The notes below the pieces were generated by a model that saw only the letters and a program-made list of their open reading frames with translations, ran no database searches and had not been told where the DNA came from. A stretch of 63,547 nt of DNA, the filler included, from Stramenopiles sp. TOSAG23-3 (Eukaryota), in NCBI GenBank assembly GCA_900128585.1. It is 40 parts of 40 records of this genome, joined end to end, with 100 filler letters (N's around TTAATTAATTAA, not from the genome) between each part and the next. Parts side by side here need not be neighbours in the genome. Positions count along the whole stretch, not along the records: positions 25,594 to 27,085 come from LT645774.1; 39 more parts are not named here. The stretch is one strand, 5' to 3'. A program made the position numbers and the translations under genes. Shown piece by piece: positions 22,738 through 29,651 of this stretch; position 1 is the first letter of the stretch; each line of letters starts with the position of its first letter.

Positions 22738-23637
22738 ATGAACTTACTAGACTCTCAACTAAATGCTGGTGGCGATAAGGTTGGGTACGTTAGTGACCTG
22801 GCTGCTGCATGCAACGCGCCGTTTGTGCTGAACGTAGAAGATATTATACGCGAAACTAGTGAACGTGGGGAAACGGAAAACTCTTCGGAATTGCATGTCT
22901 CTCGTACCCCAATAGATATTGTATGCTCTGAACTAAGGACTGTTTTTGTAGTCGATGTCGATGCAGAGATGCGGTCAAACTACGACAGCTGTAGCAGACT
23001 CGATATGGTTAAACGGTGTATAAAAGCACACGTGCAAGCCGTACTTTCGTCGCCCAGTGTAAACGTCGACTTATTTGCCATTTGCATTCTTCACAGTGAC
23101 GGCCAAGCCGCGTGGTATTTGAACTACACGTGCGACTTGAGGCGAATTTTTGATGCGGTGGAGAGGATCGAATTAGACAACGTTGGCGCTTGCCCGTGTG
23201 ATTTAAGTGCAGTTATCGAGAAATTACAGTCGAACGCGCCTGGGGGTTTTGAAAAAGAAGATTTTCTCTACCACATTGTTCTTGTACACTCTCGTAGTGG
23301 ATTGTGCCCAGTCTTTTCGAAAACCAAACAGAGCCACATGGAGTTTCTGTCGCATCGACAAGTGGTGTTTGATATCGTTTTTTTGCACAATAGAGTCACG
23401 TCAGAAGAGAAATTCGGGCTTCTTCGAGAAATCCATGCAAAGTTGTGCGAAGTGATCGACGTCGGATCCAATGTCGATGGACAAACGGGTGAAGGGAAAT
23501 GGCCGTCCTACGTTTTTTCGGGGTTTGAAAATGAAGAACAAATGTGCGTGAACTTCCTTATGCTGGCAGCGCACCCTGCCTTGCGAGAAAACCAAACTGC
23601 TGATCCTTTGCAATTTCATAAAAAAATATTCATTTAA
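22738..23637 (+). CDS. BABAM1: BRISC/BRCA1-A complex member 1 (MERIT40)-like vWA protein
   Basis: VDVDAEM, SRLDMVKRCI, CDLS, IVLVHSRS, FDIVFLH, LAAHP motifs. Confidence 0.8.
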   Translation: MNLLDSQLNAGGDKVGYVSDLAAACNAPFVLNVEDIIRETSERGETENSSELHVSRTPIDIVCSELRTVFVVDVDAEMRSNYDSCSRLDMVKRCIKAHVQAVLSSPSVNVDLFAICILHSDGQAAWYLNYTCDLRRIFDAVERIELDNVGACPCDLSAVIEKLQSNAPGGFEKEDFLYHIVLVHSRSGLCPVFSKTKQSHMEFLSHRQVVFDIVFLHNRVTSEEKFGLLREIHAKLCEVIDVGSNVDGQTGEGKWPSYVFSGFENEEQMCVNFLMLAAHPALRENQTADPLQFHKKIFI

Positions 23638-24980: not shown

Positions 24981-25493
24981 ATGGGAAATTTATGTTCAAG
25001 TTTCACTGCAAGCCAAGAAAAGACTATAAGAGAACATCGAAGACTATTTAATGTATTACATTTTACTGAATCGGATGAAAGAAACTTAGCACATATTTTT
25101 TTTGGTGCTGATGTAAATTATAATAGGAAAGTGAGTTATCAAGAATTTTTAGATAAATTCTCATTTGAAAACAATTTATTTTGTAAAAATGCATTTTTAT
25201 TGTTAGATCGTGATCATTCTGGAGACTTAACATTTACACAATTTACTTTATGTATTTGGAACTTTTGTACAATGTCAGAAGCCGATTTAATTATTGCTGC
25301 ATATGATTGTTACAATAACGATGGTCATGATGGCATACATATTGATACAATGATGAAATTGGTTGACGAGGCTACAGGAATTTTATCAGGTGTTACTGGC
25401 TCGGGTCATTTAGAAATGGGGATATCAAAAGCATTTAAACGCCATCATTATGACCCGCAACAATTGCAACGAAAAGAACACCATGCATTAGAA
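24981..25493 (+). CDS. Myristoylated EF-hand (calcineurin B/NCS-like) protein, partial
   Basis: MGNLCS; DVNYNRKVSYQEF, DRDHSGDLTFTQF. Confidence 0.85.
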
Positions 25494-25595
25494 NNNNNNN
25501 NNNNNNNNNNNNNNNNNNNNNNNNNNNNNNNNNNNNNTTAATTAATTAANNNNNNNNNNNNNNNNNNNNNNNNNNNNNNNNNNNNNNNNNNNNAT

Positions 25596-27085
25596 TTCAG
25601 AGAGAGGAATGGATTTAACAATACACTATCGCTAGTGATAGGAAAGCCATTTTGTTCAAGGGCCAAGCCCCCGCCTTGGCCAAGGGAAATCGTATCGGAC
25701 GATCCTTTCTTCACTGGCAGAGAACAGTTCATACAATCGTTGTACGATCGCATGTGGGGCGACACGGAAAGTGGGAAGTGGGAAGTGCTGCGTGGCCTTG
25801 GGGCCATTGGTAAGACTGCGATTGCGAAGCAGTACGCACGCATATACCGGGAAAAATACCCAGGGGGTATATTCTGGGTATCAGCAGACACTGCAGATTC
25901 TGTTCATGCCAGTTTTCGGGGCATTGCAAGCGATGATTTGAAGATGGGGGGGCTTGGTAAAGATGCGCGTATCGATGAAGTCATTGGGCGTGTTCTCAAA
26001 TGGTTTCAAGAACATCGAAATTGGTTGGTCATTTACGACAATGCAGACGACCTTGGCTTGCTGACGTCTCATGTTCCGGACAAGCACACCCTTGGGCACG
26101 TTTTGTTGACAACGCGAGCAAAGCAAGCTTCAGATGAATTTGCAACGCTTGGGTTTGATTTGGAGAAGGATATTGTAAGCGTCAAAACGCTGCCACAAAA
26201 TGAAGCAGAAAGCCTTCTGTTGCGTGTCGTAGGGCACGTAGAGAAACCAGAGGGAGAAAACGCCAATGCCCTAATGTGGCTTGCAGGACCGGAAGGGTTG
26301 GCCGGGCTCCCATTGGCACTTCGTCAGGCGGGGTCTTGTGTGCGGAAGAGGCAACTGTCATGGGCGGAGTACAAGACGGCATATCTACAGAAACGCACGG
26401 AACTGTTTGATGACACGGAGAAGCGTGAATCAAAGGATAAAGAAAGGCTTTTCAAATGGTTACAATCGCAACGGCTCCAGAAACATTTTGCAGATTTTCA
26501 AAAGAAGTTGGAATGTGAATCTCTGAGAGACATATTGGAAGTAAAAGCGGACGATGTCAAAGTGTTCATGAAGCTACCAGAGCAACGCCGATTTATGCGG
26601 GCAAAAAATGAGCTTCGATCGTTTGATTTTGAAGAAGAATCAATAACAGTCAAAACAACGTGGTGCATGAATGTGGAAATATTGTCTCCCGGTGCAAAGC
26701 TACTGCTTCAGCTTGCGTCGTGCTTTGCACCCGACTACAAACCGGTAGAGATTGTTGAAATGGCGTCAAAAATATTAGGTAAAGGAGGAATTTTTGATAT
26801 TGTGAATGAATTGAAGGGAAAAGATATGGGTGCACTTCTGAGTGAACTTTCGACGTATTCCCTGATCGAATGGGATGAGAGCAGGAAGAAGGTGTTTGCA
26901 ATGCATCGGTTGGTACAGCAGGTCCAGTTGGATGCAATGCCAGAGAAGAAAAAAGAAGGGTTAGCATGCCTTAGTGTTCGTATTGTTAATGAAGGGGGTG
27001 CAAATATTGATGAGACACAACAATGGGGGGAGCAGATAATGATTCGGCAACAGTGGGCAAGCCATGGAAGTTTTATTTTAGATGC
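25596..27085 (+). CDS. NB-ARC STAND NTPase (NLR-like) with inserted SAM-like domain, open at both ends
   Basis: FTGRE, GLGAIGKT, IFWVSA, WLVIYDNAD, LLTTR, GLPLAL, MHRLVQ; insert at about 26436-26617. Confidence 0.92.
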
Positions 27086-27185: not shown

Positions 27186-28392
27186 TTGCTTCGCGCCTTG
27201 TGATACTTTCAGGGAAAATGTTGAGGCTGTGATGCTTCTCTTGAAATGAGGGGACAATGCAATGATCAGCTTTTCCGAGACGATTTTGCAAGCCGCCAAA
27301 TTCTCCAAACCGCGCCACCACACCCGTGTTCAGATCGGATTTTCCAAGTCTCTCCCACACAGGCAAGGAGCGGTCCCCCCCCATCCCTTGCTTGGGATTT
27401 TTGTAGATTTTGTTTAGCTTGTTCGTCAAAATGCTGTAGTCTCTTCCCCCTTGCTGTTTTTCAGCCAGTTCTCGGGTCAGAGCGATTCTATTATGTTGAC
27501 GCCTTTCTTGCAACGTCTCCATCATGCGGTGGCGTCTTTTCCGGCTGTACTCAACTGGCTGGAATTTTGACACTCTTCTGAACCCAGCATTTGCAGTTTT
27601 GTCGAATTGTTTCAGGCGGTTTGCGTCCACCACGTGGTCGCAATTGAGAATATTGTATGCAGCACCTTCGCTTTTCTGCTCACTCTCGTTGGTGCCAACG
27701 CAACGTTTTCCCTGAGGCCTCTGTGTTGGTGTCCGAGAAACAATCGTGCCTGTGCCTTTCAGCAGCCTAGACTTATAATTTCTTCGATGCGAACCTTTCG
27801 TTTCTACAAATTTCGCTGTTTCCATTGCAGCGCGCACAAGTTCATCCTTTGCATCTTGGGAATATAATTCGTGCGTTATAATATTGCCTTTCCGCGACCG
27901 GCCTCTCTTCGTAAGCCCTGTGGGTTTATTCTTTAATCTCTCCCAGTTGGGGTGTCGTCTCAGCGGGGAACCATTCACAATATCAAAAGGTATAGAACTG
28001 CGCTGCGCCGATTTCCCCGGTCCACCAGGCATTGGCTCATCAGGATGTTTGCTACTGTGATGATGGATTAAATTCCAGGGCTTGCTTGCCTCATTTGCAC
28101 GCAAAAAAGGTTCAGGTGTGTCGTTTTCTCCGAGACTGTTGTACGCCGACCTCCGGTAATGAGATCGTAGTGGACTTGTATGGAACGAAGGCTTTGTCGT
28201 AGATTTCTTGTAATGGTCAAATGTGGGCCTGACAAAAGTTGATAGAAATTCATCAGAAGTTACGCGGCCTGTTTTTTTGGCAGGAAAGTGCGAATTGCGG
28301 GCTTCTTCCTTCGTCCACTTTAATGGCCCACTTTTTTCGGTTTCAAGTTGCTTTGTAAACTCTCCCCAAGATCGAGGAGAGTTCCCAGACAT
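27186..28392 (-). CDS. Hypothetical basic protein with (Y/F)(N/D)I(L/I/V) repeats, partial
   Basis: ORF of about 400 aa. Confidence 0.7.
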
Positions 28393-28776: not shown

Positions 28777-29651
28777 CCCCATGCTAGCAATGAACAAATT
28801 TCGGAATGCAATCAACGCCTGCTCTAGAGGATTTGTCTGCTTCGCTTTCACAAGCTCTTCAATTGCTACGTTGTGCCGCCCATGCCCTTCTGTGTAAAAA
28901 AAATCGAACTGCGGAAAATGCTGCAATGCATCGATAACAGTTTGATCCTCTGTCGAAATGAACACACGGTGCAGGCTTGTCCGTTCTGCAATGGTTTCTA
29001 GAGGCTTGATGTATTTGTTGAGATGAAATGTAAGGCTTTCGGTCCCTTTGTCTCCGTGGCGAATGTGCGCTGCAATATAATTTCCTTCTCGGATAGACTT
29101 CAAATTGGTGAATGCAATGGCGCAAAACAGCATCGTATTAGGTTGTAGTACAAACCATTGTAGCTGAGACCGCATGAACAAAATTCCGTGCTTTCTGTAA
29201 CGCTTGGGTATAAAATACCTCACCTGCATGGTATTATTGTTGAACGGAGGGGTTTGTCCCAGAAGCGTATAGCGCTGAAAGGATAAGTAAAGGCATTTTT
29301 CAGGATGGGAGGTTGGATCGTGTGACATATTTTTCAAATATGGCTTGCATTCTGGCTCAGTATTTTGCGCAGGTTCCGCGCAACCGAGAACTGGTCGGAC
29401 AAATCCGTCTGAGGGGCAACGAAAAAGCATACGAACAAATCCTCCCTTCCAATGATGCCGGCACATTTGCGATAGCACGGGTCTTTCGCCCCAATACAAA
29501 AACTTGGCACATCCATCAGTGATTTTGGGACAAACATCGGCGGAAAGAACTCCAGGGTCAAATCTCCTCCCTGCGCATCCCCTCCATGAAAGGAGGCCAA
29601 AGACAGAGTAAGGATTTTAAGAAGGAAAGAACAAAAACGCCACACCACCAT
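28777..29651 (-). CDS. Alpha-1,6-fucosyltransferase-like (GT23) protein with internal frame change near 29350
   Basis: HIRHGDK and VFISTED motifs; signal-peptide part (from 29651) lies in another frame. Confidence 0.7.

What the first reader, a model, noticed from the sequence alone, without database searches (positions are those of the whole stretch)
25596..27085. NLR-type NB-ARC NTPase with a SAM-like domain inserted inside the NOD module
Seen: a full NB-ARC motif series. Between GLPLAL (HD1) and the winged-helix start (TTWCMN...LLQLASCF...MHRLVQ) is a ~60-aa insert (about 26436-26617: LFKWLQSQRLQKHFADFQKKLECESLRDILEVKADDVKVFMKLPEQRRFMRAKNEL) with a SAM-like W-L..L..F...L..L....D......R pattern. 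Known: STAND/NLR proteins normally carry interaction domains at the termini. Inference: an internal SAM could act as a homotypic recruitment or polymerisation module on the oligomer.
Basis: partly seen in the sequence, partly recalled or inferred. Interest (0 to 1): 0.75.

Follow-up and report, generated by a model that had tools for sequence, protein, structure and literature searches.

The report
SAM domain inside an NB-ARC switch
A gene fragment from a marine protist encodes an NB-ARC "molecular switch" ATPase that carries a small SAM protein-binding domain at the hinge between two of its core subdomains, an unusual layout shared by a small family of related proteins.

Summary
The finding is one 1,492-nt piece (25594-27085) of a window made of 40 unrelated pieces. 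One frame is open from end to end, so the gene is cut at both ends. It encodes Walker A, Walker B, GHVLLTTR, GLPLAL, then an extra segment of about 75 aa, then the winged-helix domain (Pfam DUF7779) with MHRLVQ.

The extra segment is real. Independent marine runs bridge both of its borders, one of them an oligo-dT RNA library, and no spliced form was seen.

It is a SAM domain:
- The same site holds a homologous insert in at least eight other proteins, and in two of them it passes Pfam's SAM cut-offs.
- A profile of the eight inserts hits solved SAM domains (E 5e-11).
- An AlphaFold model (core pLDDT about 90) has five helices and matches only SAM structures (Z 8-10).

Among 323 complete NOD units fetched, 316 have 10-29 residues at this site and 7 have 66-159. 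Relatives are caspase-, trypsin- or Death-like domain + NB-ARC + SAM + WH + TPR.

What the SAM does is untested. My best guess is that it helps assembly of the activated oligomer. No paper on this layout turned up in seven searches. It is a new variant of a known kind.

The parts
25596..27085 (+). Gene fragment: a single open frame across the whole 1,492-nt piece, cut at both ends by the piece's ends
   Evidence: 0 stops in this frame against 25 and 27 in the other two + frames. Translations. Spacers.
25692..26405 (+). NBD + HD1 of the NB-ARC module (aa about 20-257 of P0001)
   Evidence: Pfam NB-ARC 34.3 bits, cut-off 23.5. AfsR NB-ARC E 1.6e-6 over aa 20-244. Alignment A1.
25794..25817 (+). 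Walker A / P-loop, GLGAIGKT
   Evidence: G54, G56, G59 and K60 are nearly invariant in A1.
26022..26051 (+). Walker B region, WLVIYDNADD
   Evidence: W130, D135, N136 and D138 are nearly invariant in A1.
26094..26117 (+). GHVLLTTR (sensor-1-type motif; the name is recalled)
   Evidence: G154, H155, V156, T159 and R161 are nearly invariant in A1.
26304..26321 (+). GLPLAL motif of HD1
26412..26621 (+). SAM domain inserted in the HD1-WHD linker. The five modelled helices are aa 260-278, 282-291, 297-301, 305-308 and 314-329.
   Evidence: Model at pLDDT 79, core about 87-91. Foldseek and VIA-align matches are all SAM domains. SAM_TNK 21.3-21.4 bits, below the cut-off of 25. Leave-one-out profile E 1.8e-6.
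26427..26645 (+). Segment that is extra relative to canonical relatives (aa 265-337). It includes the linker after the SAM.
   Evidence: Alignment with P0003 and P0012. Census of 323 NOD units. GC 38% against 51% and 43% in the flanks.
26670..26951 (+). Winged-helix domain (Pfam DUF7779), with the MHD-like MHRLVQ at 26901-26918
   Evidence: DUF7779 38.4 bits, cut-off 27. Motif position.
26952..27085 (+). Start of the region after the WHD. The sensor part is missing because the piece ends here.
   Evidence: Relatives continue into TPR_10/TPR_12 repeats. Alignment A1.

Best explanation
Shown: the piece encodes part of a eukaryotic STAND NTPase of the NB-ARC/DUF7779 (TPR-type) group. A genuine SAM domain is inserted in the short linker between helical domain 1 and the winged-helix domain. 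This layout is shared by a small, clustered set of relatives that carry N-terminal caspase-like, trypsin-like or Death-like domains and C-terminal TPRs.

Inferred from what is established for Apaf-1-type STAND proteins (recalled): ligand binding at the sensor allows nucleotide exchange, the WHD swings away from NBD-HD1 about exactly this linker, and the protomers oligomerise and bring their effector domains together.

Inferred and untested: the SAM at that hinge is a protein-protein contact module. It would make SAM-SAM contacts between protomers, or between rings, that stabilise or extend the active assembly. SARM1's SAM ring holds its TIR domains together in a comparable way.
For: Insert is real:
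- X4 record 10 (26350-26574, 0 differences) crosses the left border.
- X7 record 15 (oligo-dT RNA library, 26601-26803) crosses the right border.
- X5 (RNA) record 12 lies inside the insert (26439-26601).
- No joints were seen, and the only indel is an in-frame +3 nt.

Same site in relatives:
- P0169, P0232, P0209, P0148, P0211, P0125 and P0175 align across it.
- P0253 is cut within it.
- Of 323 complete NOD units, 316 have 10-29 residues there and 7 have 66-159.

SAM identity:
- P0169 scores SAM_1 26.9 bits (cut-off 23) and SAM_2 22.1 (cut-off 20.5).
- P0232 scores SAM_TNK 28.1 (cut-off 25), lying between NB-ARC and DUF7779.
- Of the 8 inserts, 5 hit SAM_TNK, 5 hit SAM_2 and 3 hit SAM_1 at E <= 0.01.
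- The insert profile against PDB sequences gives 58 SAM proteins among the 60 rows listed, best 5.1e-11, with SARM1 at 3e-6.
- The model has five helices. In the VIA-align second look at Foldseek's top matches, all 50 entries listed are SAM domains, Z 8.2-10.1.

Clustering: on a tree built without the insert columns, all 8 SAM-bearing units lie on one side of a branch (SH-aLRT 94) from 61 canonical units. None of 500 label shuffles was as clustered.

Effector and sensor context of relatives: Peptidase_C14, Trypsin_2, and TPR_10/TPR_12.
Against: - The role is not shown by anything here.
- The query's own SAM is below Pfam's cut-off (21.3-21.4 against 25).
- The query lacks glycines that its relatives keep (LEC for LGV, VFM for vGM).
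- Only core residues are invariant across the inserts (F258, W275, L276, L281, L297). No conserved interaction surface is visible.
- The closest full relative, P0003, has an intact NOD without the insert, so the SAM is not needed for the NOD as such.
- All 4 differences seen in the insert in other runs change the residue. This also holds for 17 of 22 differences in the flanks.
- The effector and sensor of this particular gene are unknown.
Confidence: 0.45

Rival explanations
1. The SAM is a docking site for another molecule rather than for itself. The partner could be a SAM-bearing downstream protein, RNA or lipid, recruited to or released from the NOD when the hinge opens.
For: The best sequence matches of the insert profile include SAMs that form heterodimers (SHIP2/EphA2, E 5.1e-11). 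The insert surfaces differ between sub-groups, as expected for lineage-specific partners. That SAMs can bind other SAMs, RNA or lipid is recalled knowledge.
Against: No partner was identified. The piece has no neighbouring genes. Relatives already carry their own effector domains, so an adaptor is not obviously needed.
Confidence: 0.2
2. The SAM acts within the molecule. As a bulky module in the HD1-WHD hinge, it tunes or latches the closed ADP-bound state (autoinhibition or lever) and makes no contacts between molecules.
For: The position is exactly the linker that is 10-29 residues long in 316 of 323 NOD units. The WHD pivots there in solved STAND proteins (recalled). Only fold-determining residues are conserved.
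Against: No model of the SAM together with the NOD could be obtained. The single-sequence fold of the whole fragment failed (pLDDT 33.8). SAM domains are not known to me as intramolecular latches (recalled).
Confidence: 0.2
3. In this particular gene the SAM is a decaying relic. It is inherited from a SAM-bearing ancestor, still folded or half-folded, and no longer used.
For: The SAM score is below threshold and family-typical glycines are missing. All 4 of 4 differences in the insert change the residue. The sister P0003 has lost the insert, or never had it.
Against: The frame is kept open (52 of 20,000 shuffles). The only indel seen is in frame. The model is confident. The same excess of residue-changing differences holds for the essential NBD.
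Confidence: 0.1
4. The insert is not a real feature. It is either a retained in-frame intron (GT at 26425, AG at 26649, 225 nt) or an assembly chimera.
For: GT...AG ends giving a 225-nt in-frame stretch can be read in the sequence. The insert is more AT-rich than its flanks. The gene model of P0002 stops right at the insert site.
Against: Contigs of other runs, one of them an oligo-dT RNA library, cross both borders, and no spliced form was seen. Homologous SAM inserts sit at the same site in proteins of other sources. The frame is open beyond chance.
Confidence: 0.02

Closest known systems
NB-ARC-TPR STAND NTPases. Examples: bacterial 'FxSxx-COOH system tetratricopeptide repeat protein' (a name given by NCBI), AfsR, and the brown-alga and amoeba NB-ARC-TPR candidates of PMC3341825 and PMC4053784 (passages read)
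   Same: NBD-HD1-WHD(DUF7779) core with the same motifs. About 30-37% identity over the NBD-HD1. TPR_10/TPR_12 sensors in relatives.
   Different: Canonical members have a 10-29-residue HD1-WHD linker (316 of 323 units). Here a SAM domain sits in it. 'SAM' and 'sterile' occur nowhere in the main text of PMC3341825.
P0003 (eukprot g8264.t1), the closest full relative and probably a paralogue from the same proteome source
   Same: 48% identical NOD, sister to the query on the tree (SH-aLRT 97).
   Different: No insert (DDTRDEKTVWTTW). It has an N-terminal FYVE domain (56.8 bits) and a hydrophobic C-terminal tail instead of TPRs (read from the sequence, not tested).
SARM1 (ARM-SAM-SAM-TIR)
   Same: A SAM domain combined with a death or immune effector. 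The insert profile hits SARM1's SAM at E 3e-6 to 6e-5 and the model matches it at Z 8.2-8.3. P0125 and P0175 carry a second module after the SAM, reminiscent of SARM1's tandem.
   Different: SARM1 has no STAND NTPase, and its SAMs are a separate central region rather than an insert. That its SAMs form the octamer ring is recalled, and also stated in a passage of bioRxiv 10.64898/2026.09.21.753143.
Fungal NLRs with an N-terminal SAM_Ste50p domain (PMC9815663, passage read)
   Same: A SAM combined with a NOD in one protein.
   Different: There the SAM is at the N-terminus, in the effector position. Here it is inside the NOD.
Apaf-1 / CED-4 / plant NB-ARC proteins
   Same: NB-ARC fold and motif order. 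Weak sequence match to Apaf-1 (E 0.24).
   Different: No domain in the HD1-WHD linker (recalled), and different sensors (WD40, LRR).

Membership tests
NB-ARC (STAND P-loop NTPase) | Pfam NB-ARC profile above its gathering score | tested here: met
   34.3 bits against 23.5, aa 31-277
NB-ARC (STAND P-loop NTPase) | Walker A, Walker B, TTR, GLPL and MHD-like motifs in order | tested here: met
   GLGAIGKT, WLVIYDNADD, GHVLLTTR, GLPLAL, MHRLVQ. These columns are conserved in A1. The motif names are recalled.
NB-ARC (STAND P-loop NTPase) | Nucleotide-dependent oligomerisation | not testable with these tools
   Needs biochemistry
DUF7779-type winged helix after the NB-ARC | Pfam DUF7779 above its gathering score | tested here: met
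   38.4 bits against 27, aa 346-439
NLR in the strict sense (NOD + LRR) | C-terminal leucine-rich repeats | tested here: inconclusive
   The piece ends 44 aa after the WHD. Relatives carry TPR_10/TPR_12, not LRR.
SAM domain | A Pfam SAM profile above its gathering score, for the query alone | tested here: not met
   SAM_TNK 21.3-21.4 bits against 25 (E 2.6e-4 to 2.9e-4). SAM_1 15.8 against 23.
SAM domain | SAM profile match of the homologous insert family | tested here: met
   P0169 SAM_1 26.9/23 and SAM_2 22.1/20.5. P0232 SAM_TNK 28.1/25. Insert profile against PDB best 5.1e-11, with 58 of the 60 listed rows SAM proteins. The query is linked to the family at E 1.8e-6 without itself in the profile.
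SAM domain | Five-helix SAM fold | tested here: met
   Predicted, not solved: five helices, core pLDDT 87-91. Foldseek TM (target) 0.65-0.83 and rmsd 1.2-2.0 for standalone SAM-domain chains, though all E >= 0.04. VIA-align Z 8.2-10.1, all 50 entries SAM. The tool warns that Z below about 13 can be common for helical bundles, so the uniform SAM list and the sequence profile carry the weight.
SAM domain | Self-association or partner binding | not testable with these tools
   Needs purified protein

The most novel reading that the evidence does not exclude
The hinge SAMs form a SARM1-like collar that holds these receptors in a pre-assembled ring before any ligand arrives. That would make this a STAND family that switches by a conformational change within a standing oligomer, instead of by ligand-induced oligomerisation. 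The versions with a second module after the SAM (P0125, P0175) would be the closest parallel to SARM1's tandem SAMs.
Probability: 0.12. Interest if true: 0.8.

Novelty: new variant of a known kind. Interest (0 to 1): 0.55.

Why it matters
STAND/NLR-type switches are the core of cell-death and immune receptors from bacteria to plants and animals. Their accessory domains are described at the termini or between modules.

A folded interaction domain kept at the very hinge that moves on activation is a natural experiment on how that hinge works. It suggests an extra layer of assembly or control. It also adds a marker (NB-ARC, SAM, DUF7779 in that order) for a little-known group of putative protease-coupled death or immune receptors in marine eukaryotes.

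The function is untested and the query gene is partial, so the present value is a well-defined structural hypothesis.

Tried and rejected
- **Whole genome:** none is held for this window.
- **Single-sequence AlphaFold of the whole 483-aa fragment:** unusable, pLDDT 33.8. No model of the SAM together with the NOD exists here.
- **Complex prediction with two copies of the insert:** 'no answer', score 0.00, controls not run, and my alignment was not used. This is no evidence either way.
- **The search for homologous proteins with alignment A2, 'longer':** searched only proteins of 2,107-5,000 aa and gave 3 hits, one of them useful (P0270).
- **The same with 'near':** returned mainly canonical proteins, because only the 8,000 candidates sharing most words were scored.
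- **Scans of metagenome contigs:** P0001 gave 15 pattern matches, none confirmed. A4 had no stretch conserved enough. A5 gave 144 pattern matches, none confirmed. The full gene was therefore not recovered.
- **tblastn of six relatives against the window:** only this piece matches.
- **ESM Atlas on aa 200-445:** only generic STAND and winged-helix clusters, nothing on the insert.
- **Earlier findings of this scan:** none by sequence or by words.
- **Retained-intron idea (26425-26649):** rejected.
a misreading, corrected.
- **Parts of the gene without cover in the laid runs:** for example 26144-26193. These say nothing.
- **X3 record 7:** has only 26 nt beyond the right border, so I did not count it as bridging.
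- **Literature:** seven searches (and a passage search in 75) found no paper describing a SAM inside a NOD.

Full report
**What the window is.** The window is not one locus. It consists of 40 pieces, falling in length from 1,504 to about 1,480 nt, joined by N44-TTAATTAATTAA-N44 spacers. The finding is exactly one piece, 25594-27085 (1,492 nt). It has no neighbours that mean anything, and no whole genome is held. A tblastn of six relatives against the window found only this piece.

**The observation.**
- One + frame is open over the whole piece: 0 stops, against 25 and 27 in the other two frames. The gene is therefore cut at both ends. The ORF listing merely began at the first GTG, 25635. An early note of mine about an upstream stop was a misreading and is corrected.
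- The 483-aa translation (P0001) matches Pfam NB-ARC (34.3 bits, cut-off 23.5, aa 31-277) and DUF7779, the winged helix that follows NB-ARC in TPR-type STAND proteins (38.4 bits, cut-off 27, aa 346-439).
- The motifs stand in order: GLGAIGKT, WLVIYDNADD, GHVLLTTR, GLPLAL, then ITVKTTW and MHRLVQ.
- The closest solved relative by sequence is the NB-ARC of AfsR (E 1.6e-6). Apaf-1 is weak (E 0.24).

**The insert is extra.**
- The closest full relative, P0003 (48% identical), runs ...DDTRDEKTVWTTW... where the query has about 73 more residues (aa about 264-337). Bacterial relatives such as P0012 are like P0003.
- I extracted 323 complete NOD units from 320 fetched proteins and aligned them. In the segment that corresponds to P0001 259-340, 316 units have 10-29 residues and 7 have 66-159.
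- A more careful alignment of 71 units also counted the second NOD of P0270, giving 8 insert-bearing units.

**The insert is neither a chimera nor an intron.**
- I laid contigs of four other marine runs on the piece.
- X4 record 10 (26350-26574, no differences) crosses the left border.
- X7 record 15, from an oligo-dT RNA-Seq library, crosses the right border (26601-26803).
- X5, an RNA library, has a contig inside the insert (26439-26601).
- No joint or spliced form was reported. The only indel is +AAA at 26641, which is in frame.
- These are contigs, so they show presence, not expression level. RNA libraries can also hold DNA.
- The 73 insert codons stay open in only 52 of 20,000 shuffles of their own bases.
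- The insert is more AT-rich (GC 38%) than the left (51%) and right (43%) flanks. I leave this unexplained; its Lys/Glu-rich make-up is one possible reason.

**The same insert in relatives.**
- The exhaustive search listed 150 of 14,462 hits. A few of them matched the query in one stretch across the insert.
- Fetched and aligned, P0169, P0232, P0209, P0148, P0211, P0125 and P0175 have a homologous segment at the same place. P0253 breaks off within it.
- P0125 and P0175 carry a second module of about 75 aa after it.
- P0270 has two NODs with inserts of about 70 aa that match the insert profile only weakly (domain E 0.002-0.03).
- A profile of the seven other inserts, built without the query, finds P0001 at aa 258-327 with E 1.8e-6 (22.6 bits). 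It finds no canonical protein among the 349 fetched.

**It is a SAM domain.**
- *Query alone:* below Pfam's cut-offs. SAM_TNK scores 21.3-21.4 bits against 25, and SAM_1 scores 15.8 against 23.
- *Relatives:* the insert passes the cut-offs. P0169 scores SAM_1 26.9/23 and SAM_2 22.1/20.5 at 542-597, between NB-ARC (327-551) and DUF7779 (618-701). P0232 scores SAM_TNK 28.1/25.
- *Across the eight inserts:* 5 hit SAM_TNK, 5 hit SAM_2 and 3 hit SAM_1 at E <= 0.01.
- *Profile of the eight inserts against all PDB sequences:* 58 of the 60 rows listed are SAM proteins. The best are SHIP2/EphA2 (5.1e-11), Caskin-1 (1.2e-10) and SARM1 (3e-6). The two exceptions have E > 0.06.
- *Model:* AlphaFold2 on the 83-aa segment with a nine-row alignment gave mean pLDDT 79 (blocks 11-70 at 87-91) and five helices.
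- *Foldseek against the PDB:* no hit with E <= 0.001, as is usual for so small a domain. Every row shown is a SAM domain; for standalone SAM-domain chains the target TM is 0.65-0.83 and rmsd 1.2-2.0 Å.
- *VIA-align second look at Foldseek's top matches:* Z 8.2-10.1, and all 50 entries listed are SAM domains. The tool warns that such Z values can be common for helical bundles. I rest the call on the uniform list together with the sequence profile.

**Family and history.**
- Relatives have Peptidase_C14 (P0125, P0148, P0211, P0175, P0253) or Trypsin_2 (P0232) at the N-terminus. P0270 has a sub-threshold Death domain (19.6/22.6). C-terminal TPR_10/TPR_12 repeats occur in P0169, P0232 and P0211, and TPR_12 in P0270.
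- The query's two closest hits carry other N-termini: Peptidase_S74-like in P0002 and FYVE in P0003. P0002's model ends just at the insert site, so it is uninformative.
- I built a tree from the NOD without the insert columns: 71 units, 332 columns, quick IQ-TREE, unrooted.
- On it, 61 canonical units lie on one side of a branch (SH-aLRT 94). All 8 SAM-bearing units, plus P0003 and P0272, lie on the other side.
- P0001 pairs with P0003 (97) and then with the caspase-type SAM group (90).
- The SAM label needs 3 changes on the tree, and at least 2 are forced by starred branches. None of 500 shuffles is as low.
- This fits one old gain with later loss in P0003. Without a root, and with several long branches, gain and loss cannot be told apart.

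**How it probably works.**
- *Shown:* the anatomy, NBD-HD1-[SAM]-WHD.
- *From established knowledge of Apaf-1-type STAND proteins (recalled):* the WHD closes on the bound ADP, and it pivots about the HD1-WHD linker when the sensor is engaged. Oligomerisation and proximity of the effector domains follow.
- *Inference:* a SAM at that pivot is most simply a contact module displayed on the NOD.
- *Estimates (identity is about 0.9 certain):* self-association that stabilises or extends the oligomer, about 0.4-0.45. A docking site for another partner, about 0.2. An intramolecular latch, about 0.2. A decaying relic in this gene, about 0.1.
- *Against a strong functional claim:* only core residues are invariant. 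The query lacks glycines its relatives keep. P0003 does without the insert. All 4 differences in the insert seen in other runs change the residue, although 17 of 22 in the flanks do too. Gene-wide, 21 of 26 differences change the residue, which suggests fast-evolving paralogues or alleles.

**Novelty.**
- Seven literature look-ups found no description of a SAM inside a NOD.
- The nearest in print is an N-terminal SAM_Ste50p in fungal NLRs (PMC9815663, passage read) and SARM1's SAM ring.
- 'SAM' and 'sterile' do not occur in the main text of the brown-alga NB-ARC-TPR paper (PMC3341825; term search and passages).
- Supplements were closed, so domain tables there could not be checked.
- I rate it a new variant of a known kind, of moderate interest.

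Noticed in passing
window 1-63547: The window is a chain of 40 unrelated pieces of about 1.5 kb, sorted by falling length and joined by N44-TTAATTAATTAA-N44 spacers. ORFs and neighbourhoods that cross the spacers are meaningless.
   Followed up: yes
P0003 (eukprot g8264.t1): The closest full relative has FYVE (56.8 bits), a long helical region, then NB-ARC and DUF7779 without the SAM. It ends in a hydrophobic tail instead of TPRs, which suggests a membrane-tethered STAND. The tail was read by eye and not tested.
   Followed up: partly
P0002 (eukprot g8854.t1): A 69%-identical relative with a duplicated N-terminal segment and a Peptidase_S74 (endosialidase chaperone) match (27 bits, cut-off 22) before the NB-ARC. 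Its gene model ends exactly where the query's insert begins.
   Followed up: partly
P0270 (2,448 aa): A Death-like N-terminus (19.6 bits, below the cut-off of 22.6) followed by two complete NB-ARC/DUF7779 units and TPRs. Both NODs have an insert of about 70 aa at the same site, with only weak similarity to the SAM profile.
   Followed up: partly
P0125 aa about 452-530 and P0175 aa about 555-630: A second helical module of about 75 aa directly after the SAM insert. Its pattern looks SAM-like by eye, but neither Pfam nor my insert profile detects it as SAM.
   Followed up: no
window 25684-26982: Of 26 differences seen in contigs of other marine runs, 21 change the residue, including in the NBD. 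This suggests fast-evolving alleles or paralogues.
   Followed up: partly
window 26427-26645: The insert has GC 38% (GC3 37%), against 51% in the left flank and 43% in the right.
   Followed up: no
window 26418-26617 (run X3): read-laying table 5c lists a contig that runs from 26617 back to 26418 with one letter between. This may be a small circular or repeat artefact of the contig builder. Unexplained.
   Followed up: no
window 24981-25493: The neighbouring, unrelated piece encodes the start of an EF-hand protein (EF-hand_1 26.8 bits, cut-off 25.4) that begins MGNLCS. This looks like an N-myristoylation start (recalled motif).
   Followed up: partly
window 22738-23634, 27187-28392 (-), 28777-29499 (-): Long ORFs on neighbouring pieces have no Pfam match at E <= 0.001.
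   Followed up: partly
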